From a virus: 64,000 bases of DNA. Shown here in pieces: positions 1,567-62,446 of the stretch (its first letter is position 1; each line of letters begins with the position of its first letter). The stretch spans positions 1 through 64,000 of IMG/VR virus record IMGVR_UViG_3300048836_000098, one strand, 5' to 3'. Made by a program: the position numbers and the translations under genes. The notes under the pieces were generated by a model. The model saw only the letters and a program-made list of their open reading frames with translations. It was not told the origin of the DNA and did no database searches.

Positions 1567-1629
1567 CCCGCCTGATGATGGTTCGATGGTGACGAGCCGA
1601 AACTCCCTTATGGGGTCGCGGGAAACCGT
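1567..1629 (+). ncRNA. Hammerhead ribozyme (type I, loop II-3' tail pseudoknot)
   Basis: Stem I CCCGC(1567-71)/GCGGG(1618-22); core CTGATGA(1572-78); stem II GGTTCG/CGAGCC; GAAA(1599-1602); stem III CTCC/GGGG; GTC cleavage triplet (1615-17); loop II ATGGT can pair with ACCGT (1625-29). Intergenic. Confidence 0.85.
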
Positions 1630-1897: not shown

Positions 1898-2734
1898 GTG
1901 AACGATATGAAAGGATGGTGTGATTTATGATCGAAATCGTTAAACAGCAGGAGCTAGACATGCGCGAAGGAACTGATTGCGCGTTCTGGGAAACAGTGGT
2001 CATGACGAGGTTTATGGACTTCATCGTGGTAGAAAAGTATAGGCGTTCGTCTGGTTGGTTCGGCACGGAAATCGATATCAGGCTTCGGGCGTGGTTCAAG
2101 GACGGCGAAGAAGCGAGAGCCGATAAGTGGTATGAGTTGCTTTGCGCAGGAGAAGAATATTGCCTCGAAGATAAGATGCGAGAGGCGTTTGATTCCGAAC
2201 AGGAGGTACAATGATCGCTATATTTGTCTTGCTCGCAGGATTTGCGATGGTGTGTTTTGCATGACAGGAAAGGATAAACCAGTATGACTATTGACAATAT
2301 CGTTATTTCGTTCGCATGCTTTGCTCTCGCAGTGCTCAATGTTTTTGTTTCGGAGTTATCTCACATCGACGGAAAGCGCGTGATCGAATCGATGTTAATG
2401 GGCGACGCTCTGATGTTTGCTTTTCTTGGAGCGTTTGCGCTGATTCCATGTTGAGGACGGTTGAATTTTCAGATTCTAAGGACTTCGCAGAACGAATGAT
2501 GAAAGATTTAGCGGATCGCAAAAAGGCTTATGACCGTTTGGATCGCGACCTTGCTTTCGATCATCATCGGAGACAGCAAAAGAAATTGCGTCGTTATGGC
2601 GCGTACAGATGGAGGTAAACATGAAACTCGAAGATAGGCGCATGGGCGCAATCGTTGCAATCGTCATCATGTGCGTTATGGCGGCGGTTTGTCTGGTGAT
2701 GTTTATCAAGGAACTATTTTAAGGAGGAAACAAA

Positions 2735-3088
2735 ATGAAATCAATCTATAATGCCAGAATCAAAAGCACGTCTCTCGGCACGGAGGATCACGGAATATTG
2801 ACGTTCTACTTGCACCTCGAATGGAACGGCGGTGGATGTGGTTTCGGCGGGTACGCGCTTGACGAATATGACAAGGCAATGGACAAGCGGATTGCTACAG
2901 CTCGTGGGTTGCAATGTATTCAAGAAGTCATGCGCGTGGTTGGCGTTAGCTCATGGGAGTCGCTTGCGGGTAAATATATCCGCGTTGAGCAAGACGATTC
3001 AGAATATACAATTCACAAAATCGGCAATCTGATGGAAGATAATTGGATCGACCTTAAAACATTCTGGAAATCGGATAAGGAGGGTTAA
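2735..3088 (+). CDS. Phage hypothetical protein immediately upstream of the RAMP gene
   Basis: Strong RBS (AAGGAGG); 117 aa with GCGFGGY motif; 4 nt gap to the next ATG. Confidence 0.7.
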   Translation: MKSIYNARIKSTSLGTEDHGILTFYLHLEWNGGGCGFGGYALDEYDKAMDKRIATARGLQCIQEVMRVVGVSSWESLAGKYIRVEQDDSEYTIHKIGNLMEDNWIDLKTFWKSDKEG

Positions 3089-3092
3089 TTTT

Positions 3093-3716
3093 ATGAAATC
3101 AATCAAAGCACGAATCACATTCACAGAAGAAGTTCTCGGAACATGCGCGGGTGATCCTAGAATCCATGAAGAGTTCATTGCATCAAAAGCCCCGAACGCT
3201 CTGAATATGGAAGAAGAAGTTGCCGCGCTCGGTGTAGATGAAGTTGTCAAGAACGGCATGACGGTATTCCCGCGAGACAATCAAGACCGACCGTTTCTCT
3301 ACGACTACCAGATCAAAGGTTTCTTTAAGGACGCATGTTCGATGTTGTCAAGATGCTCCAGCAAGGACGCGAACGGCAAAAAACAGGCGGTCAACGAATC
3401 GTCCAAGATCACGGCATTCAAAAAGGTGATCGACGGTATGATTTTCGTAACACCAAGACAGATTCCGTTCGTGTTCGATGGTGCTGTTGGGAACTGCCAG
3501 CGACCACTCAGAGCGCAGACGGCACAGGGTGAGCGAATCGCCCTTGCAAACAGCGAAACCATTCCTGCGGGCGCGTACATTGACGTTGAGATCGTTCTGT
3601 TGAATGAAGCGTATGAATCGGCTGTCATGGAATGGCTGGACTACGGCAAATGGCGCGGCATTGGTCAGTGGCGAAATTCCGGCAAGGGCGCGTTTACTTA
3701 CGAATTGCTGAAATAG
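3093..3716 (+). CDS. Stand-alone Cas7/RAMP-superfamily protein (Vipr-like), putative RNA-binding effector
   Basis: 207 aa. N-terminal beta strand ARITFTEEVLG; PFLYDYQIKGFFKDAC resembles the RAMP P-x-I-x-x-S-x-x-KG-x-x-R helix motif; C-terminal glycine-rich loop GKWRGIGQWRNSGKGAF followed by a final strand. No other cas gene in the window. Confidence 0.8.
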   Translation: MKSIKARITFTEEVLGTCAGDPRIHEEFIASKAPNALNMEEEVAALGVDEVVKNGMTVFPRDNQDRPFLYDYQIKGFFKDACSMLSRCSSKDANGKKQAVNESSKITAFKKVIDGMIFVTPRQIPFVFDGAVGNCQRPLRAQTAQGERIALANSETIPAGAYIDVEIVLLNEAYESAVMEWLDYGKWRGIGQWRNSGKGAFTYELLK

Positions 3717-4140
3717 TTGCGACGGCAAATCCTTGCATCGTGAGCAACAGCACAGCAAGGAACTGAATATCTCCGCAAAGGCATTTGAATAGCGATACAA
3801 GGCAACGGCACTGTACGGACGAGCAGGGACTGCACGGCAATGGAAGAGTTCGGAAGGGCAGAGTTAGCAAAGGCAACGCTTAGAATCGAGAGGCGATGGA
3901 GTAGCAAGCCGAAGAGAAGCGCAGCAAAGGCAAGGCGTTGAAACGGATAGCAAAGGCAAGGCACCGTCTAGCACAGCGAGAGCGAGGCATGGCGGAGCGT
4001 AGCAACAGCATGGCAATGATTGGAGAAGCGGAGTTCGCAACGGATTAGCCAAGCATTGAGTCGCAAAGCAACAGAGAGGCATAGACCAGAATTGAATCGC
4101 AACAGCATAGCTTGTCTAGGCATGCATAGCCATGGCACAG
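3717..4140 (+). repeat. Degenerate 5-nt-periodic array (NG[C/A]-NN) punctuated by 6-nt GCRAnR units; candidate guide-RNA array
   Basis: Anchors at 3719,3744,3775,3802,3837,3867,3893,3924,3950,3976,4002,4037,4068,4099,4129. Between anchors a G falls about every 5 nt, e.g. gcaaag-gcaag-gcacc-gtcta-gcaca|gcgaga-gcgag-gcatg-gcgga-gcgta. Begins 2 nt after the RAMP stop. Confidence 0.85.
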
Positions 4141-4145
4141 ACCTC

Positions 4146-4174
4146 TTGACAACCTCGCGCACTTGCTATATTCT
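4146..4174 (+). promoter_or_regulatory. sigma-A promoter bounding the 3' end of the array
   Basis: TTGACA (4146-51), then TGcTATATT / TATTCT at 15-17 nt spacing. Confidence 0.55.
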
Positions 4175-4181
4175 TTTATTT

Positions 4182-4279
4182 GGGACGCAAACCATTCACG
4201 GTGGCGCGATCCAAGTGAATACGGCTCGTCCCCTCAAAGTCCGCAACGGTGTGCCGTGAACACACCCGAAGCGGATTTT
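4182..4279 (+). ncRNA. Candidate two-hairpin structured RNA or leader
   Basis: GGGACG/CGTCCC, ATTCAC/GTGAAT and TGG/CCA nested; second hairpin AAAGTCCGC/GCGGATTTT plus GGTGTG/CACACC ending in a T run. Confidence 0.5.
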
Positions 4280-4362
4280 CTTGTTGAGAAAAGTATATAT
4301 TATTTTGATTTTGCTATTTACAAGCACTTCCAAGTATGTTATAGTAAGTATAGGAGAACGAA

Positions 4363-4536
4363 ATGAAGATTCCGAAAGCGGCAATCGCATTAAATCGTAG
4401 TACAAAGACAATCCGCACTTGGATTAAGAGCGGTATTCTTCATGCTACAAAGTTGGGAAGAGATTGGGAAATCTCCGAAGAAGAAGTTGACCGGATTAAG
4501 CGCGACGGTCTGGAACTCAAACGGCAAGATGAATAA
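4363..4536 (+). CDS. HTH_17/excisionase-like DNA-binding protein (57 aa, not in ORF track)
   Basis: RBS AGGAG; MKIPKAAIALNRSTKTIRTWIKSGILHATKLGRDWEISEEEVDRI. Confidence 0.75.
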   Translation: MKIPKAAIALNRSTKTIRTWIKSGILHATKLGRDWEISEEEVDRIKRDGLELKRQDE

Positions 4537-4545
4537 GGAGATTAT

Positions 4546-5358
4546 ATGAATACTGATATTCAAATTTTTAACAACGAACAATTTGGGAACGTTCGGGTTA
4601 TTGATCTAGGCGGTGAACCGTGGTTTGTTGCCAAAGACGTTTGCGAGGCGTTCAATGACACAAACCACATCAGAAGCGTTGGCCGGATCGATGATTCCGA
4701 TAAATGCGTGATTCAGGTTATTGACAACCTCGGAAGAACACAGAGCGCAACAGCGGTAAATGAGTCTGGATTATACTTGCTATTGTTCGGAATGCAACCG
4801 CAAAAGGCAAACAATAGTGGGGTGTCCGATGCGTACCCCATCGAGGTTCAGAAAAGAATCGATAGGTTGCGAGATTTTAAGCGGTGGATTACTCACGATG
4901 TTCTTCCATCTATTCGCAAGCACGGCATGTACGCAAAGGACGAACTACTCGACAATCCCGACCTGCTGATTGAGGTTGCAACCAAGCTAAAGCAGGAACG
5001 CGACGCTAGACTTTCCCTCGAAGCAGAGAACGCCGCTATGCTTCCAAAGGCAGATTTCTACGACGCGGTAATCGAAAGTTCCGACACCATCGAAATGGCA
5101 ACCGTCGCAAAGATTCTGAATGTTGGGATCGGTCGCAATAGACTGTTTGAAATTCTACGTGAACAAAAGATTCTTAGGGATGATAACACCCCATTGCAGA
5201 ATTACGTCGATCTTGGTTGGTTCAAGTGCGTCGAGAGCAAATACACTAAACCAGACGGCGGAACATTCATCAACGTCAAGACCGTCGTTTATCAAAAAGG
5301 TATCGATGGAATATTAAAGTTGCTTAAAGATAAATATAATTTGAAACCGATTGTTTGA
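4546..5358 (+). CDS. Phage antirepressor (BRO-N plus KilAC/ANT)
   Basis: IQIFNNEQFGNVRVI..EPWFVAKDVC; FKRWITHDVLPSIRKHGMY; PKADFYD..IGRNRLFEILR. Confidence 0.92.
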   Translation: MNTDIQIFNNEQFGNVRVIDLGGEPWFVAKDVCEAFNDTNHIRSVGRIDDSDKCVIQVIDNLGRTQSATAVNESGLYLLLFGMQPQKANNSGVSDAYPIEVQKRIDRLRDFKRWITHDVLPSIRKHGMYAKDELLDNPDLLIEVATKLKQERDARLSLEAENAAMLPKADFYDAVIESSDTIEMATVAKILNVGIGRNRLFEILREQKILRDDNTPLQNYVDLGWFKCVESKYTKPDGGTFINVKTVVYQKGIDGILKLLKDKYNLKPIV

Positions 5359-5372
5359 GTAGGGGTATCTAT

Positions 5373-5942
5373 ATGTCTGAAAGAAAACCCATATCAAAGA
5401 AATTGCGCTTTGAGATATTCAAGCGCGATGGATTTACTTGCCAGTATTGCGGAAAGATGTCGCCTGACGTTGTGCTAGAGGTTGATCACATTAAGCCAGT
5501 TGCAAGCGGTGGCAAAAACGACATGCTCAACCTTGTTACGGCGTGTTTGTCATGCAATCGCGGTAAGGGTGCAACCGAATTAAAAGACGAATCAATGGTG
5601 ATTAAGCAACAGAAGCAGCTTACCGAAGCAAACGAAAGACGGTTGCAGTTGCAAATGATGCTTGAATGGAAAGCGGAACTTGCTCGTCTTGTTGAGGATC
5701 AAGTGGATTATATCTGTGGCGTTTTCTTTAGTACCTATAAGCACGTATTGCAGGATCACGAGAGGCAGAATATAAAGTCACTAATAAATCGGTTTGGATT
5801 TAACGATGTTTGCGAGGCTGTTGACATTTCAATATTGAAATACAATTATTATTATTACGCACTTGAAAAACTTGGCGGCGTTTGCTATAACCGTAAAAAC
5901 GGAATAAGGAGTGTTAAACATGGCAATCAAACGAATCGTTAG
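5373..5942 (+). CDS. HNH endonuclease-domain protein
   Basis: RDGFTCQYCG...LEVDHIKP...NLVTACLSCNRGKG. Confidence 0.88.
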   Translation: MSERKPISKKLRFEIFKRDGFTCQYCGKMSPDVVLEVDHIKPVASGGKNDMLNLVTACLSCNRGKGATELKDESMVIKQQKQLTEANERRLQLQMMLEWKAELARLVEDQVDYICGVFFSTYKHVLQDHERQNIKSLINRFGFNDVCEAVDISILKYNYYYYALEKLGGVCYNRKNGIRSVKHGNQTNR

Positions 5943-6738
5943 TACAGAATTTTGGACGGATAAGAAGGTTGTTGAGCAATTCACGCCAGAGGATAAGCTA
6001 TTTTTCCTTTATCTTTTGACAAATCCTCACACTACGCAGCTTGGAATTTATCCGTTTATACCTAAGATCGCGGCGTTTGAAATTGGATATAGCAAAGATA
6101 CCGTGTTGAACCTTATCGAAAGATTTGAGAAATATGGCTTAATTAGATATTCAAACGTCAGCAGTGAGATTGCCGTTAAAAATTATCTAAAGCATTCAAT
6201 CGTCAAGGGCGGCACTCCCGTTTACGATCTTTTAGTCAAGGAGTCGAATCTGGTTAAAGATAAGTCATTGCTTAGATTTGTATTGTCTGCCAATAACGAT
6301 AGTTTGAATGATACAGTTCGTAAGTTTATCTCTGATACGGAAAAAGACAATGATAACGAAAAAGATAATGACAATGACAATGAGGATTCGTACCACGAAT
6401 CGTATGACGAATCGTTAAGCGATAATAACAATAATGACGATTTCGACGTTTTCTGGAAAGCGTACCCTGTTAAAAAAAGCAAGCAAGATGCAAGAAAAGC
6501 GTTTGATGCTTTAGGTAAAAAAAAGGATTCTCCAACAATCGAACGGCTAGTAGCATCGGTTGAGACGCATAAAAAATCCATTAGCTGGCAAAAAGACGGA
6601 GGACAGTTTATCCCACACCCTGCGACCTATTTGCGAAAAGGAATGTACGATGACGAATTAAGCGCGTCGGCTGGATCGACAAATCAAATTACATCAGGAT
6701 TTTTTACAAACATAGCAAAGGAGCTTGGAGAGAAATGA
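5920..6738 (+). CDS. Phage replication initiator
   Basis: RIVSTEFWTD..PEDKLFFLYLLTNPHT N-terminus; FDVFWKAYPVKKSK...FIPHPATYL C-terminal domain; D/N-rich linker. Confidence 0.85.
   Translation: MAIKRIVSTEFWTDKKVVEQFTPEDKLFFLYLLTNPHTTQLGIYPFIPKIAAFEIGYSKDTVLNLIERFEKYGLIRYSNVSSEIAVKNYLKHSIVKGGTPVYDLLVKESNLVKDKSLLRFVLSANNDSLNDTVRKFISDTEKDNDNEKDNDNDNEDSYHESYDESLSDNNNNDDFDVFWKAYPVKKSKQDARKAFDALGKKKDSPTIERLVASVETHKKSISWQKDGGQFIPHPATYLRKGMYDDELSASAGSTNQITSGFFTNIAKELGEK
6340..6440 (+). repeat. Probable replication origin repeats within the initiator gene
   Basis: GAAAAAGAYAATGAYAA tandem repeats; GATTCGT-acc-ACGAATC inverted repeat; ACGAATCGT direct repeats (6395, 6407). Confidence 0.5.
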
Positions 6739-61769: not shown

Positions 61770-61845
61770 TGGCGAATGATCTTGGACTTGAACCAAGACG
61801 CTTCCGATTAACAGCCGGACGCTCTTCCGATTGAGCTAATCATTC
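61770..61845 (-). tRNA. tRNA-Asn(GTT)
   Basis: GAATGAT/ATCATTC acceptor; TCCGG-CTGTTAA-TCGGA anticodon arm; GGTTCAAGTCC; G discriminator plus CCA. Confidence 0.92.
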
Positions 61846-62372: not shown

Positions 62373-62446
62373 TGGAGCGGATATTCGGTAACGATCCGAA
62401 CCTAACAGTTTGGAAAACTGCTGTGCTTCCAATACACCATATCCAC
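62373..62446 (-). tRNA. tRNA-Gly(TCC), atypical T loop
   Basis: GTGGATA/TATCCGC acceptor; GCAGT-TTTCCAA-ACTGT; T loop ATCGTTA; U discriminator plus CCA. Confidence 0.85.

What the first reader, a model, noticed from the sequence alone, without database searches (positions are those of the whole stretch)
3717..4140. Two-level grammar of the array: pentamers grouped into 14 units of about 6+5n nt
Anchors GC(A/G)AnR-G(C/A) start at 3719,3744,3775,3802,3837,3867,3893,3924,3950,3976,4002,4037,4068,4099,4129 (the last is a degenerate GCCATG). Spacings are 25,31,27,35,30,26,31,26,26,26,35,31,31,30, i.e. 26/31/36 within 1 nt. Between anchors a G recurs every 5 nt while the other positions vary and no two units are identical, e.g. 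gcaacg-gatta-gccaa-gcatt-gagtc-gcaaa|gcaaca-gagag-gcata-gacca-gaatt-gaatc. Conserved phase with high sequence diversity is not what simple slippage produces, and period 5 does not fit codon structure. Inference: each unit, or run of units, is a separate guide, and the 6-mer is a processing or register-reset mark.
Basis: partly seen in the sequence, partly recalled or inferred. Interest (0 to 1): 0.88.

Follow-up and report, generated by a model that had tools for sequence, protein, structure and literature searches.

The report
Phage VIPR guide-RNA array, punctuated
The five-base periodic stretch is real and is the guide-RNA array of a phage VIPR system, a CRISPR-related RNA-guided DNA-silencing system first described in 2026 preprints, so the kind is known; this copy shows a tidy two-level layout of short units whose processing and reading rule have not been tested.

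Summary
Observation confirmed. Window 3717-4140 parses into 83 words; 78 start with G, against at most 75% in shuffles. Lag-5 identity is 0.41 against about 0.21 background. The Fourier peak lies at 5.1-5.15 nt and is unique in the 64 kb.

The gene just upstream (3093-3716, 207 aa) folds as a single-domain RAMP/Cas7 protein. Its family profile aligns end to end with the characterised Vipr of Escherichia phage SUSP1.

In 80 of 80 related viral loci, and in most of 39 more distant loci, the gene is followed or preceded by a same-strand array. Those arrays share one grammar: a GCAAnG head, then four to seven G-[C/A]-n-n-n words, giving units of 26, 31, 36 or 41 nt. Units are gained, lost and swapped whole. 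Substitutions fall mostly on word positions 3-4.

This fits the relaxed repeats (YNNNG/NNNNG) and "staggered arrays" that the VIPR preprint (bioRxiv 10.64898/2026.04.26.720920) mentions but did not test.

My target searches did no better than shuffles, so the guide function rests on homology.

This scan has already noted VIPR about 158 times on other DNA. Verdict: new member of a known kind.

The parts
3079..3085 (+). Ribosome-binding site (GGAGGGT) of the vipr gene
   Evidence: Read directly in the sequence, 7 nt before the ATG at 3093.
3093..3716 (+). vipr gene: 207-aa single-RRM RAMP (Cas7-like) protein with a thumb hairpin (about residues 133-157) and a glycine-rich loop (G185-G199, GIGQWRNSGKG)
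   Evidence: ORF. No Pfam or PHROG family. AlphaFold2 pLDDT 89.3, pTM 0.83. Best Foldseek hits are type VII Cas7 and Csm3, probability 1.0. Family profile hits Cas7 of 8yhd at E 9.8e-6. hhalign against SUSP1 Vipr gives probability 83%, E 8.4e-6, 175 columns.
3717..4144 (+). vrRNA array: 83 words of consensus G-[C/A]-n-n-n in 14 units plus a degenerate end, starting one base after the vipr stop codon
   Evidence: The same kind of array flanks the gene in 80 of 80 viral loci and most of 39 further loci.
3719..3743 (+). Unit 1 (25 nt), head GCGACG
3744..3774 (+). Unit 2 (31 nt), head GCAACA
3775..3801 (+). Unit 3 (27 nt), head GCAAAG, contains a second 6-nt word
3802..3836 (+). Unit 4 (35 nt), head GCAACG, contains one 4-nt word
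3837..3866 (+). Unit 5 (30 nt), head GCAATG, last word 4 nt
3867..3892 (+). Unit 6 (26 nt), head GCAAAG
3893..3923 (+). Unit 7 (31 nt), head GCGATG
3924..3949 (+). Unit 8 (26 nt), head GCAAAG
3950..3975 (+). Unit 9 (26 nt), head GCAAAG
3976..4001 (+). Unit 10 (26 nt), head GCGAGA
4002..4036 (+). Unit 11 (35 nt), head GCAACA, last word 4 nt
4037..4067 (+). Unit 12 (31 nt), head GCAACG
4068..4098 (+). Unit 13 (31 nt), head GCAACA
4099..4128 (+). Unit 14 (30 nt), head GCAACA, decaying
4129..4144 (+). Degenerate terminal head GCCATG plus two words; end of the array

Best explanation
Window 3093-4144 is a minimal VIPR (Viral Interference Programmable Repeat) cassette of a phage that probably infects gut Clostridia. 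It consists of a vipr gene and, directly after its stop codon on the same strand, a multi-guide vrRNA array.

Inferred mechanism, by homology with the characterised SUSP1 system. The array is transcribed together with vipr. One Vipr protomer binds each 5-nt word. The protomer clamps the invariant G, and less strictly the following C/A, with its thumb and glycine-rich loop. This leaves the variable bases exposed to pair with DNA in a gapped register of three DNA bases per word. The bound filament then blocks transcription of a rival mobile element.

What is particular to this family:
- The repeat is relaxed from GGY/NN to G-[C/A]-N-N-N.
- There is no roughly 40-nt structured tail.
- The array is punctuated every 5 to 8 words (mode 6) by a conserved head, GCAAnG-GCAw. 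The head adds one base and so shifts the register.

I read each 26-41-nt unit as one short guide. It would load about one turn of the Vipr helix, which has six subunits per turn in the published RNA-bound structure. The head would be the nucleation or processing mark.

Shown here: the periodicity, the grammar, its conservation, the modular turnover of units, the RAMP fold and the profile homology to Vipr. Inferred: transcription, processing at the heads, filament loading, DNA targeting and the reading rule.
For: - Periodicity and grammar in the window.
- Protein fold: AlphaFold2 pLDDT 89 with the order beta1, helical insert, RRM helices, long beta-hairpin thumb, G-loop. Foldseek top hits are all Cas7/Csm3 backbone subunits at probability 1.0. 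The family profile hits type VII Cas7 at E 9.8e-6.
- Homology to a characterised Vipr: hhalign against the 195-aa SUSP1 Vipr (KT454805, 28474-29061, minus strand; its flanks hold the published GGY/NN vrRNAs). The result is probability 83%, E 8.4e-6, covering 4-203 against 1-192. G-loops align as GVGDWR..GRF against GxGQWRN.G.GRF.
- Gene-array linkage: in 80 of 80 IMG/VR loci the strongest lag-5 signal lies downstream of the gene, directly after it in 77; in L057, L059 and L060 it lies about 0.6-1 kb further down, and in L059 an inserted ORF separates gene and array. Most of 39 loci at 45-68% identity keep the array and the 26/31/36/41 anchor spacing. Some arrays lie upstream, on the same strand. 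No neighbouring gene travels with vipr.
- Unit profile: GCAAnG-GCAwn-GCrnn-(G-M-n-n-n)x2-5.
- Hypervariability: 349 distinct units in 61 arrays, 255 of them unique. Arrays are mosaics that differ by whole units. Substitutions between near-identical 31-nt units fall at word positions 1-5 as 40, 171, 209, 365 and 123.
- RNA structure: the array folds no better than shuffles, z +0.53, as expected for a single-stranded scaffold.
- Published VIPR biology: one protomer per repeat, six-subunit helical period, alternative repeats NNNGG/YNNNG/NNNNG, and staggered arrays at 1-nt overlapping positions.
Against: - No target was found. Every reading rule tried scored like word-order shuffles, both in 0.75 Mb of related loci and in six whole phage genomes.
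- The canonical GGY/NN consensus, the 9-16-repeat length and the structured 3' tail are absent.
- A unit read as NN per word carries only 10-16 specified bases. That is short for a guide.
- No accessory vap gene is conserved.
- The link to SUSP1 Vipr is a profile-to-single-sequence hit of moderate strength (83%).
- Expression and processing are unobserved.
Confidence: 0.85

Rival explanations
1. It is a VIPR array, but the units are not separate guides. The whole array, or long runs of it, loads one continuous Vipr filament. The extra base at each head only resets the register, for example once per helical turn, so the guide spans several units.
For: The modal unit of six words equals the six-subunit period of the published RNA-bound filament. 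No promoter, terminator or ribozyme separates the units. A single unit has low information content.
Against: Units are inserted, deleted and swapped individually between related arrays. That would break any target spanning several units. Windows of seven words that cross unit borders found no more matches than shuffles. Canonical 12-repeat vrRNAs need no register reset.
Confidence: 0.1
2. The array is not a guide. It is a protein-loading scaffold, sponge or autoregulatory 3' untranslated region. It titrates or stores the RAMP protein, as the trp leader's 5-nt-spaced triplets bind the TRAP ring, and has no sequence-specific DNA target.
For: The G phase is conserved while no target is detectable. 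The array sits on the protein's own mRNA.
Against: A scaffold gives no reason for rapid unit-by-unit turnover with change concentrated at word positions 3-4. The homologous SUSP1 system is shown to be programmable through exactly those positions.
Confidence: 0.04
3. It is a DNA-level element. The period of 5.15-5.2 bp is half a helical turn, so this could be a protein-wrapping or bent-DNA site such as a replication origin or packaging site, and not an RNA.
For: The period of 5.15 nt and unit lengths of 26, 31 and 36 nt are close to multiples of half of 10.4 bp. Replication genes lie 2 kb downstream.
Against: The element is strongly strand-asymmetric: 65% purine, with G phased and C not. It is always on the coding strand of vipr and abuts it whatever the neighbouring genes are. 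The extra base sits in a specific sequence word instead of being spread evenly.
Confidence: 0.01

Closest known systems
Type II VIPR of Escherichia phage SUSP1 and a Pseudomonas fulva prophage (bioRxiv 10.64898/2026.04.26.720920, .720927 and 10.64898/2026.10.15.759431)
   Same: Both are phage-borne. Both have a RAMP protein of about 20 kDa with an RRM core, thumb and G-loop (W-R conserved). Both have an adjacent same-strand non-coding array of 5-nt repeats with an invariant G and hypervariable inner positions. Neither has cas genes or CRISPR repeats.
   Different: - Repeat is G-[C/A]-N-N-N here, not GGY/NN.
- The two residues that read the first G in SUSP1 (H17, D177) align with T17 and Q192 here. 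This mapping is an inference.
- Units have 5-8 words, not 9-16.
- There is no roughly 40-nt pseudoknot tail, and no separate transcription signals for each guide.
- No conserved vap gene.
- The array is fused to the vipr stop codon.
'Staggered vrRNA arrays' and the relaxed repeats YNNNG/NNNNG listed for other VIPR types in the same preprint (fig. S18 legend and methods)
   Same: The legend describes guides that follow each other without spacers at positions overlapping by 1 nt. That fits the one-base register shift at each GCAAnG|G head. YNNNG matches [C/A]-N-N-N-G.
   Different: I could read only the legend and methods, not the figure or data tables. Identity with that architecture, and the type number, are therefore unverified. 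The preprint states that staggered arrays, unlike the ribozyme-spaced and single-guide forms, were not confirmed by RNA sequencing.
Class 1 CRISPR backbone subunits (Cas7 of type VII, Csm3 of type III)
   Same: They are the best structural matches. They bind RNA one subunit per short repeat length, with a thumb that flips bases.
   Different: Their period is 6 nt on a contiguous spacer. They use repeat-spacer arrays of 60-79 nt and need Cas5, Cas6 and large subunits. None of these is present here.
TRAP-trp leader RNA of Bacillus (11 G/UAG triplets spaced by 2-3 nt); named from general knowledge, not tested here
   Same: A protein oligomer reads a short fixed motif repeated about every 5 nt on single-stranded RNA.
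   Different: The fold is unrelated, the RNA is not programmable and it does not target DNA. This is an analogy only.

Membership tests
VIPR system | Small stand-alone RAMP protein (single RRM core, thumb hairpin, glycine-rich loop) | tested here: met
   AlphaFold2 pLDDT 89.3. Foldseek hits Cas7 and Csm3 at probability 1.0, TM about 0.55. Profile hit to Cas7 8yhd at E 9.8e-6.
VIPR system | Detectable homology to an experimentally characterised Vipr | tested here: met
   Family profile against SUSP1 Vipr by hhalign: probability 83%, E 8.4e-6, 175 aligned columns end to end, G-loop W-R and the C-terminal GRF strand aligned. The strength is moderate.
VIPR system | Adjacent same-strand non-coding array of tandem pentanucleotide repeats | tested here: met
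   for the window. for about 115 related loci.
VIPR system | Repeat consensus GGY/NN (YNNGG) | tested here: not met
   Word profile is G 0.93; C 0.58 / A 0.34; then weakly biased positions. G before the phased G occurs in only 11-45% of words. The preprint allows 'a related consensus' (NNNGG, YNNNG, NNNNG) for other types, and this array fits that.
VIPR system | Fixed scaffold positions with hypervariable inner positions between close relatives | tested here: met
   255 of 349 units are unique to one array. Substitutions concentrate at word positions 3-4 and spare position 1.
VIPR system | vrRNA of 9-16 repeats capped by a conserved structured 3' tail of about 40 nt (type II architecture) | tested here: not met
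   Units have 5-8 words and follow each other directly. In related loci the array runs into the next gene's ribosome-binding site. This feature defines type II, not VIPR as a whole.
VIPR system | Accessory vap gene next to vipr | tested here: not met
   None of 15 neighbouring window ORFs has a homologue next to vipr in the 80 viral loci. The only hit is an unlinked antirepressor-like match. The preprint names six vap families for seven types, so a vap-less type may exist.
VIPR system | vrRNA expressed and bound by Vipr; DNA recognised through the variable bases with one skipped base per repeat | not testable with these tools
   No RNA holder for this phage. Computational target searches were inconclusive.
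CRISPR-Cas class 1 | Repeat-spacer array (period about 60-79 nt) with a multi-subunit cas operon | tested here: not met
   Tandem Repeats Finder reports only one weak 15-nt repeat. There are no Rfam CRISPR repeat matches. Neighbours are HTH, antirepressor, HNH and DnaD-like genes.

The most novel reading that the evidence does not exclude
In this abundant gut-phage clade, each 26-41-nt unit would be cut at the GCAAnG|G head, possibly by Vipr itself in the way Cas6 cuts. The product would be a mini-guide that loads only one helical turn (5-8 protomers). It would read targets by a rule different from type II, for example all three variable bases pairing so that a word spells a whole codon. That would be the smallest natural programmable DNA binder, with its own biogenesis.
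Probability: 0.2. Interest if true: 0.6.

Novelty: new member of a known kind. Interest (0 to 1): 0.33.

Why it matters
VIPR is a months-old discovery, and only its type II form has been tested. This locus belongs to a very large clade. The members come mainly from phages and prophages of gut and rumen Clostridia.

The arrays of this clade show the cleanest version I could find of the untested "staggered" layout: short units, a conserved head, a one-base register shift and no tail. That makes it a good test bed for three questions: how such arrays are processed, how few repeats a functional guide needs, and whether the one-base-skip rule holds for relaxed repeats.

It does not add a new kind of system.

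Tried and rejected
- Rfam, permissive search on 2500-5000 and gathering thresholds on the whole window: no family covers the array.
- Nucleotide search of 2700-4600 against GenBank phages: no match. A protein search found only 4 unannotated faecal phage records.
- Target decoding, first database: 0.75 Mb made of 80 related loci plus the phage genome, arrays masked. I read word positions 34, 45, 23, 345 or 234 with 0-3 skipped bases, in windows of 4-7 words. Real counts equalled word-order shuffles. The apparent excess for '34 skip 2' came from a few units shared by many arrays. The period-5 rules only re-found unmasked arrays.
- Target decoding, second database: six complete related phage genomes fetched for the purpose, 485 distinct units. 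All 32 rule and window combinations gave z between -1.8 and +1.7.
- Two exact 18-mer scans of IMG/VR, reading units 4037 and 4002 as whole codons: 2 hits and 1 hit, about what I estimate for chance and with no convergence.
- Codon-likeness of the variable triplet: dinucleotide frequencies correlate with codon positions 1-2 and 2-3 (r 0.73 and 0.75). Stop triplets are not significantly depleted (69 observed, 81.6 expected), and the residual correlations do not favour frame 0. Inconclusive, so not used as evidence.
- Sequencing runs: no RNA holder is listed. The eight runs hold only small shares. Laid contigs cover mainly 4146-4300 and say nothing about array expression.
- Complex prediction of three Vipr copies: no verdict.
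- Coding potential was rejected. The plus strand has frequent stops. The 60-88-aa minus-strand ORFs across the array reflect its low T content, and a 5-nt period is incompatible with codons.

Full report
**1.

Window 3717-4140 has a lag-5 identity of 0.406, against 0.19-0.24 at neighbouring lags. The peak slides to lags 10/11, 15/16, 20/21, 26, 31 and 36. The true mean period is therefore about 5.15 nt. Power there is 8-13, against a maximum of 4.8 in 300 dinucleotide-preserving shuffles, while power at exactly 5.00 is nil. No other part of the 64-kb window comes close.

A trained word model parses the stretch into 83 words: 62 pentamers, 16 hexamers and 5 tetramers. 78 start with G, which is 94% against at most 75% for the best parse of shuffles. 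76 have C or A second.

Tandem Repeats Finder sees almost nothing, because only the phase is conserved and the sequence is not. The RNA folds no better than shuffles, z +0.53.

**2. The gene next door**

The array starts one base after the stop codon of a 207-aa ORF (3093-3716) that matches no Pfam or PHROG family. The ORF has a very large family.

Folded with 62 relatives, it gives a confident model: pLDDT 89.3, pTM 0.83. The order of elements is beta1, a less confident helical insert, the RRM helices, a long beta-hairpin at about 133-157, and a glycine-rich loop before the last strand. All top Foldseek hits are CRISPR backbone subunits (type VII Cas7, Csm3, type IV Cas7) at probability 1.0. 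The family profile reaches type VII Cas7 by sequence at E 9.8e-6.

**3. Gene and array travel together; nothing else does**

In 80 of 80 IMG/VR loci whose protein is about 65% identical, the strongest lag-5 signal of the 8.6-kb locus lies downstream of the gene, directly after it in 77 of them. In L057, L059 and L060 it lies about 0.6-1 kb further down, and in L059 an extra ORF is inserted between gene and array.

Most of 39 further loci at 45-68% identity keep the array. These come mostly from Oscillospiraceae and other Clostridia genomes assembled from gut and rumen metagenomes. In five of them the array lies upstream of the gene, still on its strand.

None of the window's other neighbouring ORFs is found next to vipr in the viral loci. 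In those loci the array runs straight into the next gene's ribosome-binding site, so it has no terminator or structured tail of its own.

**4. The two-level grammar is a family trait**

Pooling 61 distinct arrays, autocorrelation is highest at lag 31 (0.434, above lag 5 at 0.420), with further peaks at 26, 36 and 62. The hexamer is a specific word: G .97, C .95, A .69, A .91, n, G .92, followed by G. Distances between successive hexamers are 31 (265), 26 (125), 36 (109), 35 (51) and 41 (39).

The unit profile is GCAAnG-GCAwn-GCrnn, followed by two to five words G-[A/C]-n-n-n whose last three positions carry almost no information.

Units behave as modules:
- 349 distinct units occur in 61 arrays, and 255 are unique to one array.
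- Related arrays are mosaics that differ by insertion, loss or replacement of whole units.
- Between near-identical 31-nt units, substitutions fall at word positions 1-5 as 40, 171, 209, 365 and 123.

**5. What it is**

A literature search led to four 2026 preprints on VIPR systems. These are phage-borne systems in which a roughly 20-kDa RAMP protein, Vipr, polymerises on a vrRNA made of pentanucleotide repeats, one protomer per repeat. The RNA-bound filament is a right-handed helix with a six-subunit period. The GGY bases are sequestered and the two variable bases pair with DNA, skipping every third DNA base. The result is transcriptional silencing of rival phages and satellites.

The discovery paper also reports, for types it did not test:
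- relaxed repeats NNNGG, YNNNG and NNNNG;
- "staggered arrays", in which vrRNAs follow each other at positions overlapping by 1 nt;
- ribozyme-spaced arrays.

Staggered arrays were not confirmed by RNA sequencing. A fourth preprint recovers period-5 arrays with non-canonical motifs next to Vipr-like folds.

I located the SUSP1 locus in KT454805. It holds a 195-aa gene flanked by GGY/NN arrays. My family profile aligns with that protein end to end: hhalign probability 83%, E 8.4e-6.

In that alignment the G-loop W178-R179 of SUSP1 matches the nearly invariant W193-R194 here. The two residues reported to read the first G (H17, D177) align with T17 and Q192. This fits the loss of that G from the repeat, but it is an inference from one alignment. 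Arrays of this clade vary in how often that G is present, from 11% to 45%, with the same Q.

**6. Mechanism proposed**

By homology, the phased G corresponds to the second G of GGY, the C/A to Y, word positions 3-4 to the pairing NN, and position 5 to the relaxed first G. Each unit of 5-8 words, with a mode of six that equals one turn of the published filament, would be a short guide. The conserved head contains the only canonical GGC of the unit and adds one base, so it would mark where loading or cutting occurs.

All of this is inference. Neither transcription, nor processing, nor any target is shown.

**7. Targets: nothing found**

I decoded units under many rules and searched two databases against word-order shuffles: 0.75 Mb of related loci, and six complete related phage genomes. 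No rule stood out.

Two 18-mer 'whole codon' readings scanned against IMG/VR gave 2 hits and 1 hit, about what I estimate for chance. Codon-likeness of the variable triplet is suggestive by dinucleotide correlation, but stop triplets are not depleted.

These databases are small, and exact scans cannot test 10-16-base guides. The failure is therefore not evidence against guiding, but it leaves the function resting on homology.

**8. Verdict**

The feature is real, well organised and conserved. The kind of system is already described. Relaxed repeats and staggered arrays are mentioned in the preprint, and this scan has noted VIPR about 158 times on other genomes, including GY+NNN and 'punctuated' gut-phage forms.

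I file it as a new member of a known kind. Its remaining value is as a clean, abundant example of the untested staggered layout.

Noticed in passing
window 4146-4300: A sigma-70-like promoter (TTGACA, 17 nt, TATTCT; 4146-4174) and about 100 nt of hairpins directly behind the array. The stretch is about 94% conserved in wastewater and digester contigs whose upstream sequence is a different pentamer array. It is absent from the 80 related VIPR loci. It therefore looks like the leader of the downstream HTH/antirepressor genes and not a vrRNA tail.
   Followed up: partly
L059 4641-5168 (also L057, L060): A 175-aa ORF with no Pfam match is inserted between vipr and its array. It is followed by a duplicated stub of the vipr 3' end (..SGKGRFSYEILN, stop), after which the array starts. 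This looks like a mobile, possibly homing-endonuclease-type gene that targeted the end of vipr.
   Followed up: partly
window 1567-1629: The hammerhead ribozyme proposed by another first-stage note got no Rfam match, neither at gathering thresholds nor at E <= 1. It would matter because the VIPR preprint describes hammerhead-spaced vrRNA arrays, but there is no period-5 sequence near it.
   Followed up: partly
L082 about 2200-2330: In this distant relative the upstream array begins with four near-identical tandem units of about 31 nt (GGCAAAGGAAAGGCGCTGATGCGCAC..). This suggests recent unit duplication as a way in which arrays grow.
   Followed up: no
window 61773-61845 and 62376-62446 (minus strand): Two tRNA genes were found by Rfam at the far end of the phage window.
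   Followed up: no
window 5355-5942 and 5911-6738: An HNH endonuclease gene and a DnaD-like replication organiser gene lie about 1.2 kb and 1.8 kb downstream of the array. The VIPR cassette therefore sits in the early/replication region of the phage.
   Followed up: partly
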